A DNA stretch of 64,000 nt from Bacillales bacterium (GTDB lineage: Bacteria; Bacillota_I; Bacilli_A; RFN20; CAG-449). Numbering within the stretch: the stretch's first letter is position 1; the number at the start of each line of letters is the position of its first letter. Location: contig JAQXGN010000055.1 in assembly GCA_029006735.1 (NCBI GenBank), positions 3,239 to 67,238 of the forward strand, written 5' to 3'. Both the position numbers and the translations under genes were made by a program. Positions 1 through 25,409 of the stretch are shown in pieces. A model generated the notes under the pieces. It was not told where the DNA came from and did no database searches. It saw nothing but the letters and a program-made list of their open reading frames with translations.

Positions 1-5
1 AATTT

Positions 6-26
6 TCTCAAGGTTGAGGTTTTTTT
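6..26 (+). terminator. possible rho-independent terminator of a + strand gene that ends upstream of the window
   Basis: Short hairpin TCTCA-AGGT-TGAGG followed by T7 (20-26). The stem is only 5 bp and lies at the window edge. Confidence 0.3.
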
Positions 27-220
27 ATTTATATACAAATATTTGATTTCAATAAAATTAGATAGATTTCATAAAATCTAAAAAAATATACTGATAAAAA
101 TTTATTTGTTACCAAGATTTTTTTGTATTATATCAAAACTTAGAATCATTTAGAAATCTTTTTTTGGTTCTAAGATATTTTAAATAAATATAATAAATTT
201 TAATGCTTTATATAAAAATA

Positions 221-253
221 TACTAAATAGATACTAAATATATACTATTTAAT
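221..253 (+). repeat. TACTA-N6 x3 array, 11-bp phased direct repeats (copy 1)
   Basis: Units read tactaaataga/tactaaatata/tactatttaat. The third unit overlaps the plsY stop codon (245-247). Same architecture as 10813-10845 and 15746-15778. Confidence 0.8.
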
Positions 254-985
254 CTTTTTATCAAAGATATGTACTGTTTTTTCTTCACCTTTCATTAATC
301 TAACAATATTGTCTTTATGACGAATAATTAAGATAATTGAAAAGAGAATTAATGAACATGAATAGATAATTTTTGATAAAGGAACACTAGCATTAGCAAT
401 ATTAAAATTCATCATCCATGGTGGTAAAAAGATTAAAGCGAACGAAGTTAAAGCGATAATACTTGAGGCTAACATTGATGATAAAGATACTTTTTTTCTT
501 AATCTTAATATAACCATAAAGACAATAAAACCAAATATTGATAATGACCAAGAACTTGCTAAACAAATTCCACCAAAACTAGATACTGCTTTTCCACCTT
601 TAAAACCATATTGGATAGGGAAACAATGACCTATGATTGCTCCAAGAGCAGATATGATAAACCCATAATCCTCTAAAGCACCATATTTAACTAAGTTTTC
701 TTCAGAAATTAAATTATGTAAAACTGGGATATATTTGATTAAAAAATAACATAATAATACTGCAATAATTGTTTTTAAACAATCCAAAATAATACATAAT
801 AAACCATATTTTTTACCATATACTCTTCCGACATTTGTTCCTCCAGCATTATGTGAACCATAATTTCTTACATCTTCATTAAAAATCTTTTTACTAATGA
901 GAATACCATTTGAAAAACTACCAAAAAAATAACCAATAATTAAACAAATTAATAATGTTAATATGATGTAGATAATCGTTGGCAT
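245..985 (-). CDS. plsY: glycerol-3-phosphate acyltransferase PlsY
   Basis: Polytopic membrane protein with the PlsY signature GSHNAGGTNVGR. The ORF-track TTG start at 1012 was trimmed to ATG 985, which is preceded by AGAGGAGGAAAG. plsY-parE-parC order matches Bacillus. Confidence 0.85.
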   Translation of the reverse strand: MPTIIYIILTLLICLIIGYFFGSFSNGILISKKIFNEDVRNYGSHNAGGTNVGRVYGKKYGLLCIILDCLKTIIAVLLCYFLIKYIPVLHNLISEENLVKYGALEDYGFIISALGAIIGHCFPIQYGFKGGKAVSSFGGICLASSWSLSIFGFIVFMVILRLRKKVSLSSMLASSIIALTSFALIFLPPWMMNFNIANASVPLSKIIYSCSLILFSIILIIRHKDNIVRLMKGEEKTVHIFDKKIK

Positions 986-1054
986 GTAATCTTTCCTCCT
1001 CTTGTAAATCAAAAATAATATTAATATATTAATATAGAATTTTAAAGTATTTTT

Positions 1055-1063
1055 TGTTATAAT
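1055..1063 (+). promoter_or_regulatory. possible extended -10 promoter (TGTTATAAT) for parE-parC
   Basis: TGnTATAAT lies about 33 nt upstream of the parE ATG. The -35 region is weak. Confidence 0.35.
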
Positions 1064-1095
1064 TCAAATGTTGCAGTGAAAGTGAGGTTTTTATA

Positions 1096-3045
1096 ATGGA
1101 CAGCTATAAAGCATCTGATCTTAAGATTTTAAAAGGTCTTGATCCTGTTAAAAAAAGACCTGGTATGTATATAGGTTCTACCGATTGGCGTGGTACTCAT
1201 CATTTAGTTTGGGAGATTGTTGATAACGCAATCGATGAAGCAATTGCAGGCTATGGTAAAAAAATCACAATTACAATAAATAAAGATGAATCTATTACTA
1301 TAAGTGATGAGGGTCGAGGAATTCCATGCGACTATAATGAAAAAGAAAAAATGGAAGGCATGGATATTGTATTCTGTACTCTTCATGGTGGTGGTAAATT
1401 TGATGGGTCAAATTATAAATCTGCCGCAGGTCTTCATGGTGTAGGTTCTGCTTGTGTTAATGCTTTATCTACTTTTGTAAAAGTAAATGTATATAAAGAT
1501 GGCAAAGAATATTATGCTGAATATCATAATGGGGGAAATAAAAAATCGGGAACTAAATTGATTGGTCCTACAACTAAAAGAGGTACTACAATTACTTTTA
1601 AACCTGACTCTAAATTACTTCCTGAACCTATTTTTAATTATGATTTAATTTGTGAAAGAATTAATAATTCAGCTTGTCAATGTCCTGGAGTTAGATTTAT
1701 TTTATCGGATGATCGAGTAAAAGGTGGAAAAAAACAAGAGTATTTCTATACTGATGGAATTAAAGAATATTTGGAAAGAAAAAATTCTGCACATAAACCA
1801 CTTCATCCTTTAGGATATTTTTCTGATGTAAGTAAAGAAATTAAAGTAGAATTTGCTTTCCAATTTTTACAAGATGTCTATGAAGAGAAAGTATATAGTT
1901 TTGCTAATTCGATTTATACTTCTTTAGAAGGATCTCATGTTAGAGGATATCGTTCTGGATTAACAAAAGCATTTAATGAATATATTGAAAGAAATAAATT
2001 ATTAAAAAATGGAAAACTTGATGGAAATGATATTCGTGAAGGTTTATCTTGTGTTGTTTCTGTAAGAATTCCTGAATCTAAAATCCAATTTGAAGGTCAA
2101 ACAAAAGAAAAATTAGGAACTCCAGATGCTTCAGTTGCAATGGATGCTTTAGTTTATCAAAATATGACTCGTTATTTAATTGAAAATAAAGAGTATGCAA
2201 AGGCAATTGTTACTAAAATATTACAAGCAAGAGATGCTCGTTTAGCAGCAAGAACTGCAAAAGATGATGTTAGAAAAATGTCACCAAAAGATGCAGAGAA
2301 AAATGCTTTATTATTATCTGGTAAATTAGTCCCACCTCAATCAAAAGACTATAAAAAGACAGAATTATTCATTGTTGAAGGTGATTCTGCTGGTGGAAGT
2401 GCAAAAAAATGTCGTGATAAAAAATATCAAGGTTTATTACCTTTACGTGGAAAACCTAAGAATATTTCAAATGATGCCGAAGATGCATTTATGAAAAATG
2501 AAGAATTATCGACCTTAGCTTATACAATTGGCACAGGTACAGGAAAAGATTTTAATATTCGTAATTTACATTATGATAAAGTTATTATTATGACCGATGC
2601 TGATACTGATGGTGCACATATTCAAAATTTATTAATTAACTTTTTCTATCTTAAAATGCGTCCATTAATTGAACTTGGACATATTTATGTTGCTTGTCCA
2701 CCTTTATATCGTGTTAGTAAAATGGTGGGGAAAAAAGTTATTGAAGAATTTGCATGGAATCAAGTCGAATTAGATCAAGCTAAGAAAAAGATTGGTAGTG
2801 GATATCAAGTTTCTCGATATAAAGGACTTGGTGAAATGGATGCTGATCAATTATGGAAAACAACAATGGATCCAATGCATAGAAAATTGATTAGATTAAC
2901 AATTGAAGATGCAGATACTGCCGGTAAGTATGTTTCTTTATTTATGGGTAAAGATGCATCATTAAGAAATGATTGGATTAAAGAAAATGTTGATTTTTCT
3001 ACAAAAGGAGATTTCTTTGTTGAGGAGGTGAAGAATAATGGCTAA
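1096..3045 (+). CDS. parE: DNA topoisomerase IV subunit B
   Basis: GHKL ATPase and TOPRIM motifs are present (GLHGVG, EGDSAGGS, PLRGK, DADTDGAHI). It overlaps the downstream ParC-type subunit by 8 nt and is adjacent to plsY. Confidence 0.85.
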   Translation: MDSYKASDLKILKGLDPVKKRPGMYIGSTDWRGTHHLVWEIVDNAIDEAIAGYGKKITITINKDESITISDEGRGIPCDYNEKEKMEGMDIVFCTLHGGGKFDGSNYKSAAGLHGVGSACVNALSTFVKVNVYKDGKEYYAEYHNGGNKKSGTKLIGPTTKRGTTITFKPDSKLLPEPIFNYDLICERINNSACQCPGVRFILSDDRVKGGKKQEYFYTDGIKEYLERKNSAHKPLHPLGYFSDVSKEIKVEFAFQFLQDVYEEKVYSFANSIYTSLEGSHVRGYRSGLTKAFNEYIERNKLLKNGKLDGNDIREGLSCVVSVRIPESKIQFEGQTKEKLGTPDASVAMDALVYQNMTRYLIENKEYAKAIVTKILQARDARLAARTAKDDVRKMSPKDAEKNALLLSGKLVPPQSKDYKKTELFIVEGDSAGGSAKKCRDKKYQGLLPLRGKPKNISNDAEDAFMKNEELSTLAYTIGTGTGKDFNIRNLHYDKVIIMTDADTDGAHIQNLLINFFYLKMRPLIELGHIYVACPPLYRVSKMVGKKVIEEFAWNQVELDQAKKKIGSGYQVSRYKGLGEMDADQLWKTTMDPMHRKLIRLTIEDADTAGKYVSLFMGKDASLRNDWIKENVDFSTKGDFFVEEVKNNG

Positions 3046-5650
3046 AAAGAAAGAGATTATTCAATCTGAAGTTTATGAAGAAGAGATTATTAGTTCACCG
3101 ATTGAAGAAGTAATGTCAAATGGTTTTGGTCGTTATTCTAAGTATGTTCTTCAAGAAAGAGCAGTTCCTGATGTTAGAGATGGTTTAAAACCAGTTCAAA
3201 GAAGAATTTTATATACAATGATTCTTGAGGGTAATACTTCAAATAAACCTACTAGAAAGTGTGCTCGTACAGTTGGTGCAGTTATTGGTAGATTCCATCC
3301 TCATGGTGACACTTCAGTCTATGAAGCAATGGTTCGTTTATCTCAAGATTGGAAAATGCGTTATCCTTTAATTGATTTTCAAGGGAATAATGGGTCAATA
3401 GATGGTGATGGACCTGCTGCATATCGTTATACAGAAGCAAGATTATCAGAATTATCTGATTTAATGGTTCAAGATTTAAATAAAAATACAGTTGATATGC
3501 AACTTAACTTTGATGATCAAGAATTTGAACCTGTTGTTTTACCATGTCGATTCCCAAATATGCTTGTTAATGGAACTCAAGGTATCGCTATTGGTGCTTC
3601 TACTGATATTCCACCTCATAACTTAAGTGAAGTTATTGATGCGATTAATTATCGTATTTCCCATAAAAATTGTTCAACTGAAGATTTAATGCAATTTATT
3701 AAAGGCCCTGATTTTCCTACGGGTGGTATTATTAAAGATCAAAAATCTTTATTACAAATCTATAAAAATGGAAATGGTTCAATAAAATTATGGTGTAAAG
3801 TTGATATCGATACTTCAAATAAAGATGTTGATCAAATTATTATTCATGAAATACCATGGGGTAAAGATAAATCTGAATTAGTTAGTAATATCGATAAATG
3901 TCGTTTTGCAAATGGATTAACTGCGATATTAGAAACTCGTGATGAAACTGATAGAGACGGATTAAGAATTGTAATTGATGTTAAAAAAGGATCAGGGGCA
4001 GATAATATCTTGAATTTCTTATTATCAAAAGGTGTTTTAAGTACCACAATTAAGTTCAATTCTTTAGTTATTGATAATAATCGTCCATTAGTTGCATCAT
4101 TATTGGAAATGATTGATCGTTATATTGATCATCAAGTTGATGTTTTAACTCGAAGAAGTCAATTTGACTTAAATAAAGCAAAAAATCGTCTTCACATTGT
4201 GGAAGGCTTAATTCATGCTTGTTCTATTATTGATCAAGTTGTTCACACAATTAGACAATCTAAAGATAAACAAGATGCAAAAATTAAATTAGTTAATAAT
4301 TTTCAATTTAGTGAAGTTCAAACTGATGCTATTTTAAATTTACAATTATATCGTTTATCTAATATTGATATAGCAACACTAGAAAAAGAAGAAATCGATT
4401 TAAAAGAGACAATTAATTATTTGGAAGGTTTATTATCTTCACAAACTAAGATGAATAACTTAATCAAATCTGATTTAACAAAAGTTAAAAATCAATTTGG
4501 TGATGAAAGAAAAACATTAATTGAAGAACAAGACACATCATTTGAAGTTGATAAATTAGCATTAATCAATAAAGAAGATGTCATGGTAGCTATTACTCGA
4601 GATGGCTATATTAAGCGTAGTAACATGAAATCATATAAATCAGCGCAAGATAGTCTTCCAGGAATTAAAGTTGGAGATGCTTTCCGTGGTATTTTAAAAA
4701 CAACAACAATTGATACATTATTGTTATTCACTAATTTTGGTAACTATATAGCTGTTCCTGTTTATAAATTAATTGACAATAAATGGAAAGAAGAAGGGGC
4801 ACATATTAATGATATTTCATCCTTATCACCAAATGAAAAAATTGTTTCAGTTATCGATGTTGCTGAATATAAAAAAGGTGTTTATGTTATTTCTTTAACT
4901 AAATTAGGACAAATTAAACGTTGCCATTTATATCAATATGAAACATCAAATAGTAAAAAACCAATTAAGTGTTTTAAATTACAAGATAAAGATGAAGTTA
5001 TTGATGTCAAGGTTGGATATGGTCAATCTCGGGTCTTAATTCTATCAGATAATGGAACAACTTCTTATTATGATGAAAGTGAAATTAAACCAGTTGGATT
5101 AAAAGCAGGTGGAGTAAAAGGAATTAAACTTGATAAAGATTCTAAAGAAGTTGCTGGTTTATTGACTATTGAAGAAGATGAAAAGATTAGGTTACTTGCC
5201 TTAACTAATCATAAAGGTGTTAGAATTGTTGATGCACATAACTTAAATATGACTTATAAGTTAGGAGCTAAACAACAATTGTTTAAATCATTTAAATCTG
5301 ATCCTCAAACAGCAATCTATTTAGGTAAGATTGATAAAAAAGAAGAAAATCCATCAGTTACTGTTTTATTTGAAAATCAAGAAGTCATTAATATTGATTT
5401 AAAGGATGTGAAGAATTTACCATTTGATAACTATTTAAAGAGTAATTTAAATATTATTAATGATTTTGATATGGTCGATGTTTACGAGTTTATCGTCCCT
5501 TGTATTTCAGAAGATACAAAAGTGAAGGAACCTCTTATTAAAGAAGATGAACCTCGATTAGTTGAAGAAATATCAACTCATAAAGCTAAAGTACAAGATG
5601 AAGAAGTAAGTGTTCAATTATCTTTATTTGACTTTGTTGATGATGATTAA
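3038..5650 (+). CDS. parC: DNA topoisomerase IV subunit A, with about 60 aa of extra acidic C-terminal tail
   Basis: FGRYSKY...PDVRDGLKPVQRRILY and AAYRYTEARL (catalytic Tyr region) are present and no GyrA-box was seen. The tail ends ...VQLSLFDFVDDD. Confidence 0.85.
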   Translation: MAKKKEIIQSEVYEEEIISSPIEEVMSNGFGRYSKYVLQERAVPDVRDGLKPVQRRILYTMILEGNTSNKPTRKCARTVGAVIGRFHPHGDTSVYEAMVRLSQDWKMRYPLIDFQGNNGSIDGDGPAAYRYTEARLSELSDLMVQDLNKNTVDMQLNFDDQEFEPVVLPCRFPNMLVNGTQGIAIGASTDIPPHNLSEVIDAINYRISHKNCSTEDLMQFIKGPDFPTGGIIKDQKSLLQIYKNGNGSIKLWCKVDIDTSNKDVDQIIIHEIPWGKDKSELVSNIDKCRFANGLTAILETRDETDRDGLRIVIDVKKGSGADNILNFLLSKGVLSTTIKFNSLVIDNNRPLVASLLEMIDRYIDHQVDVLTRRSQFDLNKAKNRLHIVEGLIHACSIIDQVVHTIRQSKDKQDAKIKLVNNFQFSEVQTDAILNLQLYRLSNIDIATLEKEEIDLKETINYLEGLLSSQTKMNNLIKSDLTKVKNQFGDERKTLIEEQDTSFEVDKLALINKEDVMVAITRDGYIKRSNMKSYKSAQDSLPGIKVGDAFRGILKTTTIDTLLLFTNFGNYIAVPVYKLIDNKWKEEGAHINDISSLSPNEKIVSVIDVAEYKKGVYVISLTKLGQIKRCHLYQYETSNSKKPIKCFKLQDKDEVIDVKVGYGQSRVLILSDNGTTSYYDESEIKPVGLKAGGVKGIKLDKDSKEVAGLLTIEEDEKIRLLALTNHKGVRIVDAHNLNMTYKLGAKQQLFKSFKSDPQTAIYLGKIDKKEENPSVTVLFENQEVINIDLKDVKNLPFDNYLKSNLNIINDFDMVDVYEFIVPCISEDTKVKEPLIKEDEPRLVEEISTHKAKVQDEEVSVQLSLFDFVDDD

Positions 5651-6342
5651 TAATTATACTTTTTAAACTCAGAAAGGAGCTTTATTAAAGCTCTTTTTTC
5701 TATTCTAGATACATAACTTCGCGATATATGATACATTTTTGAAATTTCTTTTTGAGTATGTTCTACTTCGTTATTTAATCCATACCTTAAAGATATAATC
5801 TTTAGTTCACGTTCATCTAGTATTTCTAAATAACGATTTAAAGCTTTTATTTTTTGTTTCGTTTCTAATTGTTCTTCCAAAGAATCATCGATAGAAGGGT
5901 AGATATCAATTAGATGAATTTCTTGACCATCTTTATCTACACCTAATGGTTCATTTAATGAAACATTTTTTGAGTGTTTTTTATTACTTCTTAAAACCAT
6001 TAATATCTCATTTTCAATACAGCGAGCAGCATAGGTTGCTAGTTTTACGTTTTTTTCGTAAGAGAATGTATCTACTGCTTTAACTAAACCGATTGTACCA
6101 ATAGAAATTAGGTCATCTATATTTTCATCTTTTGATTCATATTTGCTTGCAATATGAGCTACTAAGCGTAAATTATGAGTTATTAGCTTGTTTCTTGCTT
6201 CATCGTGAGTCTCTTGATTAAAGAATTCTTTCATGCATTTTTCTTCTTCTTGTGGACTTAATGAAGGCGGTAAGACAGAGTTTTGAATAAAGCCTAAAAG
6301 GAAAGAGCAATTTAGTAAAGAAAGTATAAGATTTAAAAACAT
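5647..6342 (-). CDS. sigK: sporulation sigma factor K precursor (pro-sigma-K), uninterrupted
   Basis: The hydrophobic pro-sequence is followed by LRLVAHIASKY, DLISIGTIGLVKA, ATYAARCIENEILM, NVSLNEPLGVDKDGQEIHLIDI and ISRSYVSRIEKRALIKL. These segments match B. subtilis SigK better than SigE. Confidence 0.8.
   Translation of the reverse strand: MFLNLILSLLNCSFLLGFIQNSVLPPSLSPQEEEKCMKEFFNQETHDEARNKLITHNLRLVAHIASKYESKDENIDDLISIGTIGLVKAVDTFSYEKNVKLATYAARCIENEILMVLRSNKKHSKNVSLNEPLGVDKDGQEIHLIDIYPSIDDSLEEQLETKQKIKALNRYLEILDERELKIISLRYGLNNEVEHTQKEISKMYHISRSYVSRIEKRALIKLLSEFKKYNY
5675..5699 (+). terminator. rho-independent terminator of parC, embedded in the 3' coding end of convergent sigK
   Basis: Hairpin GAGCTTT-att-AAAGCTC (5677-5693) is followed by T6 (5694-5699). 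No T-run follows it on the opposite strand. Confidence 0.6.
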
Positions 6343-6422
6343 ATATTCACCATTAAAATTTATGATTTAAAAATAATGATATTCATCATTTATTAAATTA
6401 ATAAATTACTTTAACGATGATA

Positions 6423-6451
6423 TTTAAATTCATATGAATTTATCTTATAAT
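6423..6451 (+). promoter_or_regulatory. possible sigma-A promoter of the yqeG operon
   Basis: TTTAAA-17 nt-TATAAT (-10 at 6446-6451), with the SD GAGGAG and ATG 6469 downstream. Confidence 0.35.
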
Positions 6452-6468
6452 TAATATGAGGAGAATAT

Positions 6469-6987
6469 ATGCGAAATTATATACCAGATTTTTATGCGAA
6501 AAATATCTATATAATTCCTAATGATTTTTATAAAAATCATCATTTTTCTATTTTATTTGTAGATTTAGATAATACATTAGATTCATACTTATGTGAAACT
6601 CCTTCAAAAAAAGCTCTTGATTTAGTTAATGAATTAAAATCGATAGGAATAAAAATATTTATTATTTCTAATAATCATTATGAGCGAGTAAAAAAATATG
6701 CGAGTGTACTAGAAGTTGAATACTTATATAAATCAGGTAAACCTTTTGGTAAAAAAATTAATCAATTTATTGACGATAAAAAATTAAATCGAGATAATAT
6801 TCTATTAATTGGTGATCAACTAATAACTGATATTCGAACTAGTAAAAGAATTAAAGTGAAATCATTATTAACGGATAAACTAGTAAAAGAAGATCAATGG
6901 ACTACAAGATTTAATCGTATCGCGGATACAATAATAAGAAATAGATTAAGAAAAAAGAATATTTTAAGTTCTAAGGAGGTAAAATAA
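6469..6987 (+). CDS. yqeG: YqeG-family HAD-IIIA phosphatase
   Basis: DLDNTL and GDQLITD HAD motifs, and first position in a yqeG-yqeH-yhbY-nadD-rsfS operon. Confidence 0.8.
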   Translation: MRNYIPDFYAKNIYIIPNDFYKNHHFSILFVDLDNTLDSYLCETPSKKALDLVNELKSIGIKIFIISNNHYERVKKYASVLEVEYLYKSGKPFGKKINQFIDDKKLNRDNILLIGDQLITDIRTSKRIKVKSLLTDKLVKEDQWTTRFNRIADTIIRNRLRKKNILSSKEVK

Positions 6988-8099
6988 TGGGAAAAGTTGT
7001 ATTAAGATGCTATGGATGTGGTTGTGAACTACAAAATTCAAATCCTAATGTCACTGGATATACCCCAAAATTAATTGAAGGTAATAGTGTGATATTTTGT
7101 CAACGTTGTTTTCGTTTACAACATTATGGAATCAATAATGATGAAAATGTGTCTACTCCTAAATTTGATCAAATATTAGCTAAAGCTATTAAGAAGAAAA
7201 ATTTAATTCTTTACGTAGTTGATTTATTTAATATTGAAGGATCGATAATTAAAGAAGCTCATAAATATATCAAAGATAATCCAGTTTTAGTTTTAGCAAA
7301 TAAAAGAGATATTTTACCTAAGCTAATAGATGATAATAAATTAAGAGAATTTGTTTATCAAAGATTAAAAAGTGAAGGGGTTAAACCTTTAGATATCATT
7401 ATTGTCTCTGCATATAAAAATTATAATTTAGATGAAATCTATTTAGCATGTAGAACGTTAAGAAATAAAGGTGATATTTATATTATTGGTGCATCTAGTG
7501 TTGGTAAATCATCTTTCTTAAATTCATTTATGAAATCATATAAAAATGAAACAAGAAATGTTATTTCTACTTCACCTTATCCAGGAACGACAGTAAGTAC
7601 AATTACAATTCCAATTGATAATAAGAGCTATATTCATGATACTCCTGGGGTACTTGTCAAAGATTCTTTCTACGGATTATTAGAAAAGAGTGCAATAAAA
7701 TATGTTATTCCACGTACCGAAATTCGTCCAAAGTCATTTCAATTGAATTCTAAACAAGCTGTTTTTATTGGTGGTCTTGCTAAAATAGAAATTATTGATG
7801 GAAGTAAGTGTGGTTATACTTTCTATGTATCGAATGATGTTGAATTACATCGTTGTAAGTTAGAGAATACTAATGTTAGTTTTGATTCATTAGTATCAAG
7901 AGCAAAAATTAGACCAACAAGTGTAATTGTTAGAAGTTCAGAAGATTTAATTAGTCATGAATTTGTCCTACCAGAAGATAAATCTGTTGATATTGTTATT
8001 TCAGGCCTTGGTTGGGTTGCAACAAAAGGAAAAGGACAAAAAATTATTGTTAAAGCACCAAAAGGTATCAATGTTATTATTCGTGATAGTGAAATTTAG
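6987..8099 (+). CDS. yqeH: ribosome biogenesis GTPase YqeH
   Basis: N-terminal CxxC...CxRC zinc ribbon and a circularly permuted GTPase (NKRD ... GASSVGKS ... DTPG). Confidence 0.85.
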   Translation: MGKVVLRCYGCGCELQNSNPNVTGYTPKLIEGNSVIFCQRCFRLQHYGINNDENVSTPKFDQILAKAIKKKNLILYVVDLFNIEGSIIKEAHKYIKDNPVLVLANKRDILPKLIDDNKLREFVYQRLKSEGVKPLDIIIVSAYKNYNLDEIYLACRTLRNKGDIYIIGASSVGKSSFLNSFMKSYKNETRNVISTSPYPGTTVSTITIPIDNKSYIHDTPGVLVKDSFYGLLEKSAIKYVIPRTEIRPKSFQLNSKQAVFIGGLAKIEIIDGSKCGYTFYVSNDVELHRCKLENTNVSFDSLVSRAKIRPTSVIVRSSEDLISHEFVLPEDKSVDIVISGLGWVATKGKGQKIIVKAPKGINVIIRDSEI

Positions 8100-8108
8100 G
8101 AGAAGTCT

Positions 8109-8402
8109 ATGTTAAGTAAAAAACAAATTAAATATTTAAGAGGATTAGCAAATCCTCTTGATGCAAAATATCAAATCGGAAAAAGAGAATTATCTAAAGA
8201 ACAAATTGATATGCTTGATAAAGCTTTAATTAAGCATGAATTAATTAAAATTAGCGTTAATCGTAGTGTAGTTTCCCTTAAAGAAGAAATTGCAGGTGAA
8301 TTAAGCGAATGTTTACATGCTGAACTAATTCAAATTATTGGATCAGTTATTGTTCTATTTAGAAAAAATTTAAAGGAAAGTAATTATCATTTACCTCAAT
8401 AA
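8109..8402 (+). CDS. yhbY: YhbY/CRM-domain RNA-binding protein
   Basis: 97 aa with LSKKQIKYLRGLANPL...QIGK, typical of YhbY/YqeI, in the syntenic position. Confidence 0.8.
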   Translation: MLSKKQIKYLRGLANPLDAKYQIGKRELSKEQIDMLDKALIKHELIKISVNRSVVSLKEEIAGELSECLHAELIQIIGSVIVLFRKNLKESNYHLPQ

Positions 8403-8403
8403 T

Positions 8404-9501
8404 ATGAAAACGATAATTTTTGGTGGTTCATTTGACCCAATTCATAATGGTCATATACAAATTGCAAGAAAAGCTCAATCTATTCTAAATGCAGATCGAG
8501 TTCTTTTTCTAGTTGCAAAATCACCACGTTGGAAAAAGACAATGTCTTCGACTAATCATCGTATAAATATGTTAAAATTAGCCATTCAAAATGAAAAAAA
8601 TATGGAGATTTCATATTTAGAGGTCGATTCTATTGAAGAAGTGAATTATACTTATAAAACTTTATTAAGATATGAAAAGAAAGATGATGAGGAAGTTTAT
8701 TTTCTTTTTGGATATGATCAATTAGAAGTATTAGATAAGTGGTATGAGATTGATAAGTTAAAAGATTTAGTGCATTTAGTAGCCTTTAATCGCCTTGGTT
8801 ATTCTATTAATATGAATAATGTTACTAAATACAATGTTCAATTGATTGATATTGGATTATCTAGTATGTCAAGTAGTGCATTACGGGAATTAAAAAATGT
8901 AGATGCACCTAAAGAGGTTTTAGATTATATTGTTCAAAATGAACTATATTATATTCCTAAGATTAAATCATATATAAGTGGACATCGTTATGACCATACT
9001 ATAAGTGTGGCAAATACAGCTTATGAAATCGCTAAAAGGAATTCTATTAATGTAAGTAAAGCTTATATTGCAAGTTTACTTCATGATATTGGTAAAAATG
9101 TTGATATAAATTTGCAAGATGCGTTTGTGAAAAAGAATTATCCTAGTTACTATGGCTTATTACCTTTAGCTTTGTATCATCAATTTGTTAGTGTAGATAT
9201 TGCAAAAAATGACTTTAAAATTGATGATAATGAAATTATTGAAGCAATTAAGTATCATGCAACTGGGAAGGCAAATATGACTAAATTAATGAAATGCGTC
9301 TATGCTTCTGATAAGATTGAACCAACTAGAGACTATGATTCATCTTTATTAATTAATCAATGCAAAGAAGATATTGATTTAGGATTTAATCAAGTATTAG
9401 AAGAAAATGTGTTATTTTTTAAAAAGAAGAATATTCCGTTTAAAAATCTATTAACGATTTCATGTATCGAATATTATTTAGGAAAGGAAATATTAAAATA
9501 A
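8404..9501 (+). CDS. nadD: fusion of nicotinate-nucleotide adenylyltransferase NadD and HD-domain YqeK phosphohydrolase
   Basis: The N-terminal half has GGSFDPIHNGH. The C-terminal half has the HD motifs RYDHTISV and LLHDIGK. The two are separate adjacent genes in B. subtilis. Confidence 0.8.
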   Translation: MKTIIFGGSFDPIHNGHIQIARKAQSILNADRVLFLVAKSPRWKKTMSSTNHRINMLKLAIQNEKNMEISYLEVDSIEEVNYTYKTLLRYEKKDDEEVYFLFGYDQLEVLDKWYEIDKLKDLVHLVAFNRLGYSINMNNVTKYNVQLIDIGLSSMSSSALRELKNVDAPKEVLDYIVQNELYYIPKIKSYISGHRYDHTISVANTAYEIAKRNSINVSKAYIASLLHDIGKNVDINLQDAFVKKNYPSYYGLLPLALYHQFVSVDIAKNDFKIDDNEIIEAIKYHATGKANMTKLMKCVYASDKIEPTRDYDSSLLINQCKEDIDLGFNQVLEENVLFFKKKNIPFKNLLTISCIEYYLGKEILK

Positions 9502-9502
9502 G

Positions 9503-9838
9503 ATGGAAGAAGTAAAATTAAGTATTATTAAAAAAGCAATTGATGAGAAAAAAGCGGAAGACATTGAAGTAATTGATGTTACTGGACACAATCCTTTTTA
9601 TGATTTTGTTGTGATCGCGACTATCGGTAATTCTCGTCAAGCAAACGCTATTGTTGATGAAATAAGCAAGAATTTAGCTTTAATCAAAGAAGAAGTTAAT
9701 CATATTGAAGGTGATACATCTTCTTCTGATTGGATTTTAATTGATTGCAATGGTATTATTGTTCATTTATTCACCCTCCAAGAGCGTTTAAGAATCAATC
9801 TTGAAGAATTGCTTAAGAAGAACTTAAAACGTTTCTAG
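9503..9838 (+). CDS. rsfS: ribosome silencing factor RsfS
   Basis: 111 aa with KKAEDIEVIDV...FYDFVVIATIGNSRQANAI...DWILIDCNGIIVHLF. Confidence 0.85.
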   Translation: MEEVKLSIIKKAIDEKKAEDIEVIDVTGHNPFYDFVVIATIGNSRQANAIVDEISKNLALIKEEVNHIEGDTSSSDWILIDCNGIIVHLFTLQERLRINLEELLKKNLKRF

Positions 9839-9848
9839 AGGTGTTAAA

Positions 9849-10535
9849 ATGGGGAAAATATATAGTCTTATTGTTGCAGCAATGCAAGTTGAATTTGATG
9901 CTTTAAAAAATGAACTTGATTCTTATAGAGAAATAGAAGTTCAGAATGAAAAGCTTTTAGAGTTTTCTTTAAATGGAGAATATTATTTATTAGGTTTAGG
10001 AAAAATAGGGAAAGTTAGTACGGCTTTTTTTCTTGGTAAATTATTTTCTTGCTTAACAATTAAAAGAGTTTTTAACATCGGTACTTCTGGTGGAGTAAAT
10101 TCTTCATTAAATATTTCTGATGTGATTATTGCTACTGAGGTAGGGTATTATGATGTTGATGTTATCGACTTTGGTTATCAAATGGGACAAGTTCCTGGGT
10201 TTCCTAAATATTTTACTTCTGATTTAAATTTTATAGAGTCTAAGAAGATTTCAAGTAAGTTTAATATTGTTAAAGGATTAATTCTTTCGGGTGATAATTT
10301 CGTCTCTAAGAGAGTCTATAACAAGACAATTTTAAAAGATGTAAAAGAGTGTCTTGCTTGCGAAATGGAAGCGGGAGCAGTCGCACAATGCTGTTATTCA
10401 ATGAATATTCCATTTGTAATAATTCGATCGATTTCTGATATTGTAACTAAGGATGACAACAATCTAGATTTAGATAAAAATGAGAAGAGCGTATCAACTA
10501 ATTCTGCGTTAGTATTACTCGAATTGATTAAATAA
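9849..10535 (+). CDS. mtnN: 5'-methylthioadenosine/S-adenosylhomocysteine nucleosidase
   Basis: PNP/UDP family; AAMQVEF, GTSGG, CEMEAGAVAQ and IRSISD motifs. Confidence 0.8.
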   Translation: MGKIYSLIVAAMQVEFDALKNELDSYREIEVQNEKLLEFSLNGEYYLLGLGKIGKVSTAFFLGKLFSCLTIKRVFNIGTSGGVNSSLNISDVIIATEVGYYDVDVIDFGYQMGQVPGFPKYFTSDLNFIESKKISSKFNIVKGLILSGDNFVSKRVYNKTILKDVKECLACEMEAGAVAQCCYSMNIPFVIIRSISDIVTKDDNNLDLDKNEKSVSTNSALVLLELIK

Positions 10536-10551
10536 TTAAATAAATAATAAT

Positions 10552-10581
10552 GCTAGTAAGTGTGATATTTACTAGCTTTTT
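10552..10581 (+). terminator. rho-independent terminator of the yqeG-mtnN operon
   Basis: GCTAGTAA-9 nt loop-TTACTAGC followed by TTTTT. Confidence 0.7.
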
Positions 10582-10669
10582 AATTGTCTAAAATTGTCAG
10601 GTAATAGGGGATTTATACACATTTAGACATTATTTTCTTATAAATTTCCTAAAATTGTCTTTTTATATT

Positions 10670-10697
10670 ACTTCGCATAATACTCATTATGTAAACT
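10670..10697. other. dif: dif chromosome-dimer resolution site (XerC arm ACTTCGCATAA, spacer TACTCA, XerD arm TTATGTAAACT)
   Basis: 22/28 identity to the B. subtilis dif sequence as I recall it (ACTTCCTAGAATATATATTATGTAAACT), with the XerD arm 11/11. CGCATAA also matches the E. coli dif left arm. It lies in the convergent gap between the + and - strand gene runs, with xerD 1.4 kb away. Confidence 0.8.
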
Positions 10698-10812
10698 AAA
10701 TATATAATAAAATGCGATATTTCGACATTTTATATTAATAATTATTAATGTATCAAATAGATATTAGTATAGTTATCCACAATTATTTAAATATTATTTT
10801 TATTAAATTATC

Positions 10813-10845
10813 TACTATATAAATACTAAATATCTACTAAATGCG
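10813..10845 (+). repeat. TACTA-N6 x3 array, 11-bp phased direct repeats (copy 2)
   Basis: Units read tactatataaa/tactaaatatc/tactaaatgcg. The array is 116 bp from dif and lies beyond the deoB terminator. Confidence 0.8.
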
Positions 10846-10855
10846 ATAATAATAT

Positions 10856-10892
10856 AAAAACTAGATGTCATTTAATTATTATTTCCATCTAG
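10856..10892 (-). terminator. probable terminator of deoB
   Basis: On the - strand, CTAGATG-18 nt loop-CATCTAG is followed by TTTTT. The large loop lowers confidence. Confidence 0.5.
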
Positions 10893-10902
10893 TTATATAT
10901 GA

Positions 10903-12135: not shown

Positions 12136-13011
12136 TTAATTCATGTACTTATCATATGCAGATAGTATTCTTTTTGTTGATACATGGGTATAGATTTGTG
12201 TAGTAGTTATTTTACTATGGCCTAACATTTGTTGGACCATGATTAATTCTGCCCCACATTCTAATAAATGTGTTGCAAAACTATGTCGCAATGTATGAGG
12301 TGATATCTCATCTTTAATACCTGCCATTTCAGCATATTTTTTTACTTGTTTCCAAAAGAATTGACGAGTAAGTACTTCTCCATGATGATTTAAGAATAAA
12401 TAATCACTCTTTTTATTTACATTTTTATTCCTAACTTCTTTAATATATTTATTTAAATATTCTAATGCAAACTCTCCAATTGGTATTATGCGATCTTTAT
12501 TGCCTTTTCCTTGAACTACTTTTATACAATTTAATGAAGTAGAAAAAGAAGATAACTTTAGATTTAATAACTCACTTACACGTAATCCACAAGAATACAT
12601 AACTTCTAACATTGCTCTATCTCTAATACCAATATCTTTAGATAGATCAGGTTGCTCAAATAAAGATTCTATATCTTCTATAGATAAAACAGAAGGCAAA
12701 TGTTTACCTATTTTTGGGGTTTCAATTGTTTTAGCTTCAATTTTTAGAATATTTTCTCTAGTTAAAAATGTATAAAATGATTTAATTGTAATTGCTCTTC
12801 TACTAATTGTTGATGAACTTTTACCTTCATTTCCTAAATATACGATGTATTTCTTGATATCTAGATAATCTAATTGATCAGTATCTTCTTTTTTTAAAAA
12901 ACGAAAAAACAACTCTAAATCTTCTTTATAATTATTATAAGTTTGATTAGATAATCCTTTTTCTACTAATATATATTCTAAAAATCTATCTATTGCATCA
13001 TCTATTCTCAT
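12136..13011 (-). CDS. xerD: site-specific tyrosine recombinase XerD
   Basis: GLRVSEL, GKGNKDRIIP, LTRQFFWKQVKKYA, PHTLRHSFATHLL and LGHSKITTTQIYTH are present. The xerD-deoB order matches Bacillus and the gene is adjacent to dif. Confidence 0.85.
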   Translation of the reverse strand: MRIDDAIDRFLEYILVEKGLSNQTYNNYKEDLELFFRFLKKEDTDQLDYLDIKKYIVYLGNEGKSSSTISRRAITIKSFYTFLTRENILKIEAKTIETPKIGKHLPSVLSIEDIESLFEQPDLSKDIGIRDRAMLEVMYSCGLRVSELLNLKLSSFSTSLNCIKVVQGKGNKDRIIPIGEFALEYLNKYIKEVRNKNVNKKSDYLFLNHHGEVLTRQFFWKQVKKYAEMAGIKDEISPHTLRHSFATHLLECGAELIMVQQMLGHSKITTTQIYTHVSTKRILSAYDKYMN

Positions 13012-17311: not shown

Positions 17312-18094
17312 TTAATAGCTTGGTAATTTTGCATCTATTTTATTATCTTTTAATGAAATATAATCAGAAATCATCGCAATAAATTCTGAATTAGTTGGTT
17401 TTGCTTTACTTGCTGATATTGTATAACCAAATATTTCATCTATCGTATCAATATTTCCCCTATTCCATGCTACTTCAATCGCATGTCTAATTGCTCTTTC
17501 TACTCTTGAACCAGTTGTTTTATATTTTTTTGCAATTTCTGGATATAATACTTTAGTAATTTGTCCGATATATTCTGGATTAGAATATGAAGAAGTAATC
17601 GCCGTTCTAAGGTATTGATATCCTTTAATATGAGCAGGAATACCAACATCATGTAATACTTTGGTAATTTTTTGCTCTAATGAATCATCAATTGGCGTAA
17701 AGTTTTTAGTCAAATCAAGATTCATATTTATATGTTTTAATAATGATTCTACTGAATTTGGTTTTAAAATAAATTGATCCCCACCTAATGATGATACTAA
17801 AGCAAGAATATGATCATTAACCATACTAGATTGACAAATAATCGTTTGAATAGAAGGATAATCATCAATATTTAGTTTTAGTTCCTGTAATACTTCAAAT
17901 CCATCCATAATCGGCATAACCATATCAAGAATTAATACATCAATTTTATTAAAATATTTAATCTTGTCTAGTCCACTTTTTCCATCATTTGCATAACCAA
18001 CTACTTTCATATTTTCTTGTGTAGATAAGAAGCGACATACTTCAGTAATATAATCCTCATTATCATCGATAATAAAAACTGATTTTTTTTCCAT
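17312..18094 (-). CDS. spo0A: sporulation master regulator Spo0A
   Basis: Receiver domain (FIIDDNED...LDMVMP) plus the Spo0A-specific C-terminus ([19 protein letters not shown]). The start was moved to ATG 18094, preceded by GAAAGGA, because the ORF-track ATG at 18124 has no SD. Confidence 0.9.
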
Positions 18095-18252
18095 AAATTT
18101 TATTCCTTTCGAATTAATTATCATTTTTATATCGCATTTTGTTATATAAAAAAAATAAAAGAAGAATTACTGTATTTAATTCTCCTTTCAAACGAATTAA
18201 TAATATTAGAGTTCGCAAATAAAGTTTATTCGCTTTTCTTGCAACATCTATT

Positions 18253-23243: not shown

Positions 23244-25409
23244 CTATTTACCCACTTGCTTTATTGATAAAGCAATTCTTTTTTTGTTTACTTCGACTCC
23301 AATAACTCTTACTTTAACGATTTGTCCTATTTTTAAAGCATCTAATGGATGTTTAATGTATTTATCACTAATTTCAGAAATATGAACTAAACCATCTTGA
23401 TGTACTCCAATATCAACAAATGCCCCAAAATCGATAATATTTCTTACTGTTCCATTTAATTCCATCCCAATTTGAAGATCTTTAATATCACAAACATCAT
23501 TGCGTAATTCTGCTTTTACATTGATATCACGAATATCTCTACCTGGTTTTTCTAGTTCGTTAATGATATCTTTTAATGTTTCAACGCCAACATTTAATTC
23601 TTTTGCAACTGCATTTATATTTAAATTATTAAGTTTTAATGTAAGAATATCACTACCGATATCTTCAATAGATAATTTTACATATTTTAACAATTTTAAT
23701 GTGATTTCATAAGATTCTGGATGAATACCGGTATTATCTAGAGGATAATGATCTTGAATTCTTAAAAATCCTGCACATTGTTGGAATGCTTTTTCTCCTA
23801 ATTTGCTAACTTTTAATAAATCTGATCTTGATTTATATTCACCATTATTTTCTCGATATGCAACAATATTTTTCGCAATTGAAGAATTAATACCAGAAAC
23901 GTAAGTTAATAAACTTGGTGAAGCTAAATTAACGTCAACTCCAACTAAATTAACACAATTTTCTACTACTCCACCTAAAGCTTCACCTAAATGTTTTTGA
24001 TTCATGTCGTGTTGATATTGCCCTACACCGATTGATTTTGGATCAATTTTTACAAGTTCGGCTAATGGATCTTGAACTCTTCTTGCTAAAGAAATCGCAC
24101 TTCTAACACTTACATCAAGGTTTGGAAATTCTTCAGTCCCCAATTTTGATGCACTATATACAGAAGCACCAGCTTCATTTGTAATAACATAATCTACTTT
24201 AATCATTGGATATTCTTTAAAAACATATTCTTTTAAGAATCTTTCTGATTCTCTTCCACCTGTTCCATTTCCTAATGAAATTAAATCGACATGATATTTT
24301 TTAATTAAAGTTGCTAAAGTTAATGCTTCTTTTTTTAATATTTCTTGATTAGTGACAGTTGCATGTAATACACCGGTATATAATACTTTACCTAATCGAT
24401 CAACAATTGCAATTTTACAACCAGTTCTTATACCTGGATCAAATCCTAAAACTACTTTATTTTTAATCGGTGCTTCTAATAATAGTTCTTTTAAATTAGA
24501 TTTAAATACTTCAATAGAAGTATTCTCACTAACTTCTAAAATATCTCCTCTAATTTCATTAGAAATAGATGGGAAGATTAGTCTTTTATAAGCATCAGTA
24601 ATTGCATCTAAAATAATTGGAGTAAAAATTGTTTCTTTTTTTATTAAATCTTTTGCGATGAAATTGATATTTGTCGTATCTTCACCTAAAATATCTACTT
24701 TTAAAATTCCTAATTTTTCTCCTCGATTAATAGCCAAAATACGATGAGATGCTATTTTAACAATTGGTTCAATGTAGTTATAATACATTGCAAATCGTTC
24801 ATTTTCATCGATAGCTTTTGGATCTAATTTAGTAGTAATCGAAAATGTTTTAAATGTATATTCACGAATCTTCTTACGATAAGACGCATTATCAGAAACT
24901 GTTTCTGCGATAATATCTTTTGCACCTTGAAGAGCTTCAAGGACACTATTTACACCTAATTCTTCATTAATAAAAGAAGAAACATATTTTTCAAAGTCAC
25001 CTTCATTATCTTGTTTTAAAATATAATCAGCAAGAGGTTCTAATCCTTTCGCTTTTGCGATGCTTGCTCTTGTTTTTTTCTTTGGTTTATATGGTCGATA
25101 AATATCTTCTAATTCACTTAATGTTTTCGCATTTAATAGACTATTTTTAATTTCCGAAGTTAATTTACCTTGTTCATCAATTGAATTCAAAATAGTATCT
25201 AATCGATCATAAAAATTTTTATAGTAAGTATATTTTTCAAAAAAGATACGTAATGCTTCATCACTCATTGAACCTGTCCATTCTTTTCTATAACGTGCAA
25301 TGAATGGAATAGTACAACCATCTTTTAAGAAATTAATAACATTATTTACTTGTTTTTCTGTGATATTTAAATCATTTATTAATCTATTTATTATAATATC
25401 TTCGTACAT
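23244..25409 (-). CDS. tex: Tex-like transcription accessory protein (YqgF/HhH/S1 domains)
   Basis: 721 aa with IPFIARYRKE, an RNase H-like LGFDPGIRTGCK segment, and a C-terminal S1 domain (GTVRNIIDFGAFVDIG...GLVHISE). Confidence 0.85.
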   Translation of the reverse strand: MYEDIIINRLINDLNITEKQVNNVINFLKDGCTIPFIARYRKEWTGSMSDEALRIFFEKYTYYKNFYDRLDTILNSIDEQGKLTSEIKNSLLNAKTLSELEDIYRPYKPKKKTRASIAKAKGLEPLADYILKQDNEGDFEKYVSSFINEELGVNSVLEALQGAKDIIAETVSDNASYRKKIREYTFKTFSITTKLDPKAIDENERFAMYYNYIEPIVKIASHRILAINRGEKLGILKVDILGEDTTNINFIAKDLIKKETIFTPIILDAITDAYKRLIFPSISNEIRGDILEVSENTSIEVFKSNLKELLLEAPIKNKVVLGFDPGIRTGCKIAIVDRLGKVLYTGVLHATVTNQEILKKEALTLATLIKKYHVDLISLGNGTGGRESERFLKEYVFKEYPMIKVDYVITNEAGASVYSASKLGTEEFPNLDVSVRSAISLARRVQDPLAELVKIDPKSIGVGQYQHDMNQKHLGEALGGVVENCVNLVGVDVNLASPSLLTYVSGINSSIAKNIVAYRENNGEYKSRSDLLKVSKLGEKAFQQCAGFLRIQDHYPLDNTGIHPESYEITLKLLKYVKLSIEDIGSDILTLKLNNLNINAVAKELNVGVETLKDIINELEKPGRDIRDINVKAELRNDVCDIKDLQIGMELNGTVRNIIDFGAFVDIGVHQDGLVHISEISDKYIKHPLDALKIGQIVKVRVIGVEVNKKRIALSIKQVGK

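What the first reader, a model, noticed from the sequence alone, without database searches (positions are those of the whole stretch)
10670..10697. Canonical dif site at a convergent strand switch: the window appears to span the replication terminus
ACTTCGCATAA-TACTCA-TTATGTAAACT has the 11-6-11 architecture of XerC/XerD dif sites. The right (XerD) arm is identical to the B. subtilis/S. aureus dif arm as I recall it, and the left arm shares CGCATAA with E. coli dif. It sits in an unusually long (367 bp) gap between convergent transcription units. Genes at 1096-10535 are on the + strand, and every gene from 10903 to 54215 is on the - strand. That is the pattern expected where two replichores with replication-co-oriented genes meet. 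xerD is 1.4 kb away. This explains the large non-coding gap and gives context for every other oddity in it.
Basis: partly seen in the sequence, partly recalled or inferred. Interest (0 to 1): 0.6.

Follow-up and report, generated by a model that had tools for sequence, protein, structure and literature searches.

The report
Chromosomal dif site at replication terminus
The 28-base sequence is the ordinary chromosome dimer-resolution (dif) site of an uncultured low-GC gut Bacilli bacterium, at the point where its two replication arms meet; the only unusual thing is a conserved set of protein-binding-type motifs a fixed distance beside it.

Summary
Confirmed, and ordinary. ACTTCGCATAA-TACTCA-TTATGTAAACT lies at window 10670-10697 and is unique in the window and in the 1.49-Mb, 65-contig assembly. 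It sits 60 bp from the contig's cumulative GC-skew maximum. That point is the strongest skew switch in the whole assembly and has terminus polarity; dnaA and the skew minimum are on another contig.

In 35 of 41 genomes of the same order the arms occur exactly once. The four middle bases of the central region vary and the flanks are not conserved. In 20 of 20 relatives with 10-kb flanks the skew changes from + to - at the site.

The genome encodes XerD (1.4 kb away, catalytic residues intact), a XerC candidate next to trmFO, and an FtsK-type translocase with a gamma domain. The XerD arm is identical to that of B. subtilis dif; the arms match a published pan-bacterial dif consensus at 19 of 22 positions.

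Minor corrections: ispH is a + strand gene inside the "-" block, and two - genes lie left of dif.

Not ordinary: a DnaA-box word about 100 bp from dif and a phased TACTAA array about 140 bp from it, both on the XerD side and both conserved across this lineage. Earlier notes of this scan already flagged this.

The parts
10670..10680 (+). dif left arm ACTTCGCATAA, the inferred XerC (CodV-type) binding half-site. It faces mtnN.
   Evidence: It is invariant or nearly so in 35 relatives. Assignment to XerC is by analogy with E. coli and B. subtilis dif (PMC5357621).
10681..10686 (+). dif 6-bp central region TACTCA, where strand exchange takes place.
   Evidence: The outer T and A are invariant in relatives although the search pattern left them free. 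The inner 4 bases vary between species.
10687..10697 (+). dif right arm TTATGTAAACT, the inferred XerD (RipX-type) binding half-site. It faces deoB and xerD.
   Evidence: 11/11 identical to the B. subtilis dif right arm as printed in PMC3025954.
12136..13011 (-). xerD, tyrosine recombinase, 291 aa.
   Evidence: TIGR02225 340.4 bits, cut-off 329.6. It aligns to E. coli XerD structure 1a0p at E = 1.7e-57, with the R, K, HxxR, H and Y catalytic positions conserved. Its linkage to dif is conserved in relatives.
10552..10576 (+). Intrinsic terminator of the mtnN transcription unit, upstream of dif.
   Evidence: an 11-pair stem followed by a T-run; 0 such sites expected in shuffles.
10859..10893 (-). 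Terminator-like hairpin plus U-run after deoB.
   Evidence: -11.5 kcal/mol, z = -3.4; the stem is followed by UUUUU.
10707..10733 (.). Small hairpin flanked by an A-run and a T-run, 10 nt after the XerD arm. Possibly a bidirectional terminator.
   Evidence: z = -3.1 on the + strand and -2.2 on the - strand. Similar hairpins are visible at this place in many relatives. Its function is inferred only.
10773..10781 (+). TTATCCACA, a perfect DnaA-box word, 103 bp from the dif start.
   Evidence: TT[AT]TCCACA lies on the same strand at +101 to +124 in 20 of 30 loci of the order. Only 18 copies of TTATCCACA exist in the whole assembly.
10813..10839 (+). Phased array of three TACTA-N6 units, 11-bp period, 143 bp from the dif start.
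   Evidence: At least two phased units lie at +123 to +191 in 25 of 30 loci. Only 4 triple arrays exist in the assembly, 3 of them on this contig.

Best explanation
This is the chromosomal dif site of an uncultured low-GC Bacilli bacterium. Records of its relatives are titled Erysipelotrichaceae bacterium or uncultured Bacilli bacterium.

Proposed mechanism:
1. XerC, encoded on contig C37, binds the left arm ACTTCGCATAA. XerD, encoded 1.4 kb away, binds the right arm TTATGTAAACT.
2. When homologous recombination has joined the two sister chromosomes into a dimer, the two dif copies are brought together at the closing septum by the FtsK/SpoIIIE-type translocase.
3. The XerCD tetramer exchanges strands at the borders of the 6-bp central region TACTCA and restores two monomers.

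The site lies where the two replichores converge, between the terminators of two convergent transcription units.

Shown here: the sequence, its uniqueness, its position at the skew switch, its conservation once per genome, and the presence of the genes. Inferred: which recombinase binds which arm, the order of cleavage, and dependence on FtsK.
For: - Sequence and uniqueness.
- Skew: both GC and AT skew change sign in the 2-kb bin that holds the site. The contig's cumulative GC-skew maximum is 60 bp away. It is the largest skew contrast in the assembly, with + to - (terminus) polarity. dnaA is on C58, beside that contig's skew minimum.
- Relatives: 35 of 41 genomes of the order carry exactly one copy of the arms at 3 or fewer mismatches; the reversed-pattern control hits 2 of 41.
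- Conservation pattern: the spacer's T and A were left free in the pattern yet are invariant, the inner 4 bases vary, and flanks are unconserved at about 0.2-0.3 bits per column against 1.6 in the arms.
- Skew in relatives: 20 of 20 have + skew on the left and - skew on the right, and the cumulative maximum is within 400 bp in 18 of 20.
- Independence from neighbours: two genomes of other families have different neighbouring genes (Tex-like protein, EF-P), yet the site still lies between convergent genes at the switch.
- Independence from base composition: the same 22 specified bases occur in more than 120 species of several phyla, in loci of 25-72% GC, including two relatives whose dif neighbourhood is 48-52% GC.
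- Machinery: XerD; a XerC candidate at 332.5 bits, downstream of trmFO, with R, K, HxxR, H and Y readable in its sequence; an FtsK gamma domain at 53.3 bits in an 854-aa frame.
- Match to known sites: arms 19/22 to B. subtilis dif and 19/22 to the consensus AATTCGCATAATGTATATTATGTTAAAT used in PMC6199493.
Against: - There is no direct biochemical or genetic evidence; the organism is uncultured.
- The assembly is a 65-contig draft at 94% completeness. A whole-chromosome skew curve is impossible, and a second site in the missing 6% cannot be strictly excluded.
- The XerC candidate scores 332.5 bits, just under NCBIfam's equivalog cut-off of 335.15.
- Arm conservation in relatives is partly built in, because the relatives' sites were found with a pattern made from this site.
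- I could not show KOPS/SRS-type polar words converging on the site.
Confidence: 0.95

Rival explanations
1. A conserved palindromic operator for a transcription factor that regulates the neighbouring nucleoside-salvage genes (deoB, mtnN), not a recombination site.
For: The site lies between mtnN and deoB in most relatives, and it is a partial palindrome.
Against: - It lies at the 3' ends of both convergent genes, beyond the mtnN terminator and the deoB hairpin, not in a promoter.
- In G037 and G031 the neighbours are different genes and the site is still there.
- In several relatives 1-3.5 kb of other genes separate it from deoB.
- The same sequence occurs in unrelated phyla.
- It is single-copy per genome and tracks the skew switch.
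Confidence: 0.01
2. A secondary Xer site: the attachment scar of an integrated element that exploits Xer (IMEX), or a plasmid-type site, with the true chromosomal dif elsewhere.
For: About 31 nt, the XerD arm plus AAATGCGATA, are repeated in degenerate form 130 bp to the right. That pattern could be read as a relic of a duplication.
Against: - No second site with 3 or fewer arm mismatches exists in the assembly or in any of 35 relatives.
- The flanks are housekeeping genes in conserved order.
- Extra DNA next to the site in relatives encodes lipoprotein and permease genes with no second dif.
- The site coincides with the skew switch.
Confidence: 0.02
3. A chance AT-rich palindrome in a 27% GC intergenic region.
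For: AT-rich genomes hold many short palindromes.
Against: 0 matches in 100 shuffles. One copy per genome in 35 of 41 relatives against 2 of 41 for the reversed control. 19/22 arm identity to an experimentally confirmed dif.
Confidence: 0.005

Closest known systems
Bacillus subtilis dif (Bsdif) with CodV (XerC) and RipX (XerD), and the translocases SpoIIIE and SftA
   Same: 28 bp with 11-6-11 layout. The right arm TTATGTAAACT is identical and the left arm matches at 8 of 11 positions. There are two recombinases, and the XerC-type gene lies downstream of trmFO, as I recall for codV in B. subtilis. An FtsK/SpoIIIE-type translocase with a gamma domain is present. The position is at the terminus.
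   Different: The left arm carries the CGCATAA core typical of proteobacterial dif instead of CCTAGAA. xerD lies 1.4 kb from dif here and throughout the order. No RTP homologue was found, so there is no Bacillus-type Ter/RTP fork trap. A conserved DnaA-box word and a TACTAA array lie beside dif; I know of no such thing described for Bsdif.
Escherichia coli dif with XerC, XerD and FtsK, and the pan-bacterial dif consensus AATTCGCATAATGTATATTATGTTAAAT (PMC6199493)
   Same: Same architecture. Arms match E. coli dif at 17 of 22 positions and the published consensus at 19 of 22. Single copy, at the GC-skew shift point, as in the survey of Kono et al. 2011 (PMC3025954).
   Different: The central region is TACTCA rather than TGTATA. 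Direct activation of XerD by FtsK gamma is shown for E. coli but not for B. subtilis (PMC5357621), so which regime applies here is unknown.
Single-recombinase systems: XerS/difSL (streptococci, lactococci) and XerH/difH (Helicobacter)
   Same: The recombinase gene lies close to its site.
   Different: Those systems use one recombinase and atypical sites; difSL is 31 bp with an 11-bp centre (PMC5357621). Here the site is canonical at 28 bp, two Xer paralogues are present, and the XerS model scores only 119.8 bits against a 267 cut-off on this XerD.
Plasmid Xer sites cer and psi, with accessory sequences bound by ArgR/PepA or ArcA/PepA
   Same: A core Xer site accompanied by conserved flanking protein-binding DNA at a fixed distance.
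   Different: Here the centre is 6 bp, the site is chromosomal, and the conserved motifs (DnaA-box word, TACTAA array) lie on the XerD side and are of a different kind.

Membership tests
Chromosomal XerC/XerD dif site | 28 bp: two 11-bp half-sites of imperfect dyad symmetry around a 6-bp central region | tested here: met
   ACTTCGCATAA / TACTCA / TTATGTAAACT; the arms are complementary at 8 of 11 positions, counted directly from the sequence.
Chromosomal XerC/XerD dif site | Sequence similarity to experimentally confirmed dif sites | tested here: met
   19/22 arm positions match B. subtilis dif and 17/22 match E. coli dif, using the letters printed in PMC3025954.
Chromosomal XerC/XerD dif site | Single copy per chromosome | tested here: met
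   Unique in the 94%-complete assembly. One copy in each of 35 relatives that have a match.
Chromosomal XerC/XerD dif site | [quoted passage not shown] | tested here: met
   'Opposite oriC' could not be measured in a 65-contig draft. What was shown is polarity, rank among all skew switches, and dnaA lying on another contig.
Chromosomal XerC/XerD dif site | Cognate XerC and XerD recombinases encoded, with catalytic residues intact | tested here: met
   XerD is above the equivalog cut-off, and its catalytic positions align to 1a0p. The XerC candidate scores 332.5 bits, 2.7 bits under the cut-off, with catalytic residues readable in its sequence.
Chromosomal XerC/XerD dif site | FtsK/SpoIIIE-family translocase with a gamma domain | tested here: met
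   PF09397 at 53.3 bits (cut-off 30.6) in an 854-aa open frame on C49.
Chromosomal XerC/XerD dif site | Polar KOPS/SRS-type words converging on dif | tested here: inconclusive
   GGGNAGGG and GAGAAGGG are absent from the contig. GAAGAAG is not polar on the right arm. De novo skewed words are confounded by GC skew and coding strand.
Chromosomal XerC/XerD dif site | Binding and cleavage by XerC/XerD, and dimer resolution in vivo | not testable with these tools
   Needs gel-shift, cleavage and excision assays.
Bacillus-type RTP/Ter replication fork trap | RTP protein encoded | tested here: not met
   No PF02334 match in the genome at E <= 0.01; the B. subtilis control matches.

The most novel reading that the evidence does not exclude
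In this lineage of low-GC Bacilli, dif may not be a bare 28-bp site. It may be the core of a conserved composite of about 180 bp:
- dif;
- a short hairpin;
- a DnaA-box word (TT[AT]TCCACA) about 100 bp from the dif start;
- a phased TACTAA-N5 array about 140 bp from the dif start.

All of these lie on the XerD side and in fixed orientation. The extra motifs would dock DnaA and/or an unidentified DNA-binding protein at the terminus. Possible roles are to position or insulate dif, or to couple the end of the chromosome cycle to the initiator.

My evidence shows the conservation and the fixed spacing. It does not show any binding or function.
Probability: 0.4. Interest if true: 0.6.

Novelty: new member of a known kind. 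Interest (0 to 1): 0.2.

Why it matters
The dif site itself matters mainly for annotation. It fixes the replication terminus of a fragmented genome of an uncultured gut bacterium. It gives an order-wide dif consensus, ACTTCGCATAAT-N4-ATTATGTWAAnn, which can anchor contig ordering and growth-rate (origin/terminus coverage) estimates. It also explains the long non-coding gap.

It adds nothing new to Xer biology. The one point that could matter more is the conserved DnaA-box and TACTAA module beside dif. If functional, it would be an undescribed accessory of a chromosomal dif site.

Tried and rejected
- KOPS/SRS search. Known motifs are absent or not polar. De novo skewed 7- and 8-mers are G-rich words, which orienting blocks by GC skew would produce anyway, so this is not evidence either way.
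- Rfam scan of the gap. No RNA family at E <= 1, so the gap is not a known RNA gene.
- IMEX or phage integration at dif. No second site was found. The inserts beside dif in relatives are lipoprotein and permease genes. Rejected.
- Operator for deoB or mtnN. Rejected on position and on relatives with different neighbours.
- RTP/Ter fork trap. No RTP.
- Literature search for DnaA boxes next to dif. None of the listed titles or abstracts describes such an arrangement; I did not read the papers in full.
- DnaA box at about +100 outside this lineage. Among 120 loci from many phyla with the same dif core, it occurs only in low-GC records titled Bacilli, Erysipelotrichia/-ales/-aceae, or in one case Azospirillum sp. 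CAG:239. It is therefore lineage-specific, not a general property of this dif variant.

Full report
**Observation.** The window reads ACTTCGCATAA-TACTCA-TTATGTAAACT at 10670-10697 on the + strand. No other sequence within 3 mismatches exists in the window, and none appeared in 100 dinucleotide-preserving shuffles. The window is C55:3239-67238 of a 1,492,564-bp assembly of 65 contigs at about 28% GC. A scan of every 28-mer on both strands found this as the only good match; the runner-up has 4 mismatches in the 22 arm positions.

I checked the reference sequences instead of relying on memory. Kono et al. 2011 (PMC3025954) print E. coli dif as GGTGCGCATAATGTATATTATGTTAAAT and B. subtilis dif as ACTTCCTAGAATATATATTATGTAAACT. 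The right arm here is therefore 11/11 identical to B. subtilis. The arms overall are 19/22 to B. subtilis and 17/22 to E. coli. They are also 19/22 to the consensus AATTCGCATAATGTATATTATGTTAAAT, which another study used to find dif in 4,055 chromosomes (PMC6199493).

**Surroundings.**
- Left of the site, on the + strand: parE, parC, yqeH, a nadD-yqeK fusion, rsfS and mtnN.
- Right of the site, on the - strand: deoB, xerD, dinB, a MATE transporter and others.
- The 367-bp gap (10536-10902) is the longest in the window.
- It starts with the mtnN terminator at 10552-10576 and ends with a hairpin plus U-run after deoB.
- No known RNA family matches the gap.
Two - strand genes lie left of the site.

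**Is it the terminus?**
- GC skew is positive in every 2-kb bin from 1 to 10000 and negative from 10001 to 54000. AT skew changes sign in the same bin.
- The cumulative GC-skew maximum of the contig is at C55:13848, which is window 10610, 60 bp from the site.
- I compared 10 kb left against 10 kb right at every position of every contig long enough. The largest contrast in the assembly (D = 0.344; +0.191 versus -0.153) is at C55:14291, with + to - polarity, the polarity expected where two leading strands converge.
- All other switches are weaker, and most have one side near zero.
- dnaA is on C58:22707-24026, next to that contig's cumulative skew minimum at 23432. The origin is therefore elsewhere.
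- Because the assembly is a draft, the angular position relative to oriC cannot be measured.

**Relatives.**
- A search of 41 genomes of the same order with ACTTCGCATAA-N6-TTATGTAAACT, allowing 3 mismatches, found exactly one match in each of 35 genomes and never two. The same pattern read backwards matched in 2.
- The first and last base of the central region (T and A) were left free in the pattern yet are invariant. The four inner bases differ between species. The flanks carry about 0.2-0.3 bits per column against 1.6 in the arms.
- For 20 relatives with 10 kb on each side, all 20 have positive skew on the left and negative on the right. In 18 the cumulative maximum lies within 400 bp of the site.
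- Gene order parE-parC...yqeH-nadD-rsfS-mtnN > dif < deoB-xerD-dinB, and the orientation of dif within it, are conserved across the family and beyond.
- The site is nevertheless not tied to those genes. Several relatives have 1-3.5 kb of lipoprotein and permease genes between it and deoB. Two genomes of other families have quite different neighbours (a Tex-like protein, EF-P), with the site again between convergent genes.
- Two genomes listed as the same genus have a dif neighbourhood of 48-52% GC, yet keep the AT-rich 28-mer with identical arms; only the inner four bases of the central region differ.
The hits span Xanthomonadales-type Gammaproteobacteria, Burkholderiales, Methylophilaceae, Clostridia, Erysipelotrichales and others, in loci of 25-72% GC.
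- This variant is therefore close to the general bacterial dif consensus, and nothing about the core site is peculiar.

**Machinery.**
- The 291-aa product of 12136-13011 (-) passes NCBIfam's XerD equivalog model (340.4 bits, cut-off 329.6). It aligns over its full length with the E. coli XerD crystal-structure sequence 1a0p, with the Arg, Lys, His-x-x-Arg, His and Tyr catalytic positions conserved.
- A second Xer-type recombinase of 307 aa lies on C37, immediately downstream of a trmFO-like gene. It scores 332.5 bits on the XerC model (cut-off 335.15), and its catalytic residues are readable. The trmFO-codV arrangement in B. subtilis is from my own knowledge.
- A third, weak hit on C1 (46.6 bits) is not a Xer-type match.
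- An 854-aa open frame on C49 carries an FtsK gamma domain.
- No RTP homologue exists.

**Mechanism.** The mechanism follows the established model (PMC5357621). XerC binds the left half-site and XerD the right. Two dif copies on a chromosome dimer synapse at the septum, and strand exchange at the edges of the 6-bp centre resolves the dimer. Which recombinase cleaves first, and whether the translocase activates XerD directly (as in E. coli) or only positions the terminus (as reported for B. subtilis), is not known for this organism.

**Rivals.**
- Operator for deoB or mtnN. This fails on position (3' of both genes, outside their terminators) and on relatives with other neighbours.
- IMEX scar or secondary site. 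This fails because there is no second site in this or any relative, and because the site coincides with the skew switch.
- Chance. Excluded by the shuffles and by the once-per-genome pattern.

**What is not ordinary.** Aligning the 215 bp to the right of dif in 28 loci shows two further conserved blocks:
- AGTTATCCACA, which contains a perfect DnaA-box word. TT[AT]TCCACA lies on the same strand at +101 to +124 from the dif start in 20 of 30 loci. Only five other occurrences were found on either strand in the roughly 90 kb of these loci.
- A phased array of the form TAC-TAA-N5-TACTAA-N5-TACT. At least two units lie at +123 to +191 in 25 of 30 loci.

In the window these are at 10773-10781 and 10813-10839. 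The assembly has only 18 TTATCCACA words and 4 triple TACTA arrays, 3 of the arrays on this contig. Among 120 loci with the same dif core from many phyla, the box at about +100 is confined to low-GC loci whose records are titled Bacilli, Erysipelotrichia/-ales/-aceae or, in one case, Azospirillum sp. CAG:239. It is therefore lineage-specific.

Two smaller features lie in the same stretch:
- A degenerate direct repeat of about 31 nt links the XerD arm region (10688-10719) to the array region (10818-10848).
- A small hairpin lies 10 nt after the XerD arm.

Earlier notes of this scan had already flagged and followed up the TACTA arrays and the DnaA box. My counts were made independently of them and agree. 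A literature search returned no title or abstract describing DnaA boxes joined to dif. I treat this module as a separate, unexplained feature and not as part of the verdict on dif.

**Verdict.** The dif site is a new member of a thoroughly known kind, so interest is low. The neighbouring module is the only part that might be new.

**Not done.** The search for polar KOPS-like words was inconclusive.

Noticed in passing
window 10773-10781 and 10813-10839; L001-L030 at +101 to +191 from dif: A conserved module lies on the XerD side of dif: a DnaA-box word TT[AT]TCCACA (20 of 30 loci, same strand, +101 to +124) followed by a phased TACTAA-N5 array (25 of 30 loci). Some relatives also have inverted arrays 140-390 bp left of dif. 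The module is lineage-specific to low-GC Bacilli-type (Erysipelotrichales-like) records.
   Followed up: partly
window 10688-10719 and 10818-10848: A degenerate direct repeat of about 31 nt, 130 bp apart. The XerD arm plus AAATGCGATA resembles the TACTA array plus AAATGCGATA. Meaning unknown.
   Followed up: no
window 10707-10733: A hairpin flanked by an A-run and a T-run, 10 nt after the XerD arm. It contains TTCGACA, the reverse of the Spo0A-box word TGTCGAA as I recall it. Comparable hairpins are visible at this place in many relatives. spo0A itself is at 17312-18124.
   Followed up: partly
L045 (G013:C3) and L046 (G001:C13): Two genomes listed as the same genus have 48-52% GC around dif, against 27% here. 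Gene order is the same and protein identity is 43-78%. That is an unusually wide GC range for one genus, if the kinship label is right.
   Followed up: no
window 1096-5650: The topoisomerase IV genes parE and parC lie 5-9.5 kb from dif, here and in most relatives. The decatenase genes thus sit beside the dimer-resolution site. This may be only a matter of conserved gene order.
   Followed up: no
window 8404-9501: nadD and yqeK are fused into one 365-aa ORF. It matches PRK07152 over its full length, the NadD model at residues 5-182 and the YqeK model at residues 188-345.
   Followed up: no
L075 (CAVJWU010000003.1): A close relative (28% GC, same dif and same module) is titled 'Azospirillum sp. 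CAG:239' in its public record. The title looks like a taxonomic misnomer for a Bacilli genome.
   Followed up: no
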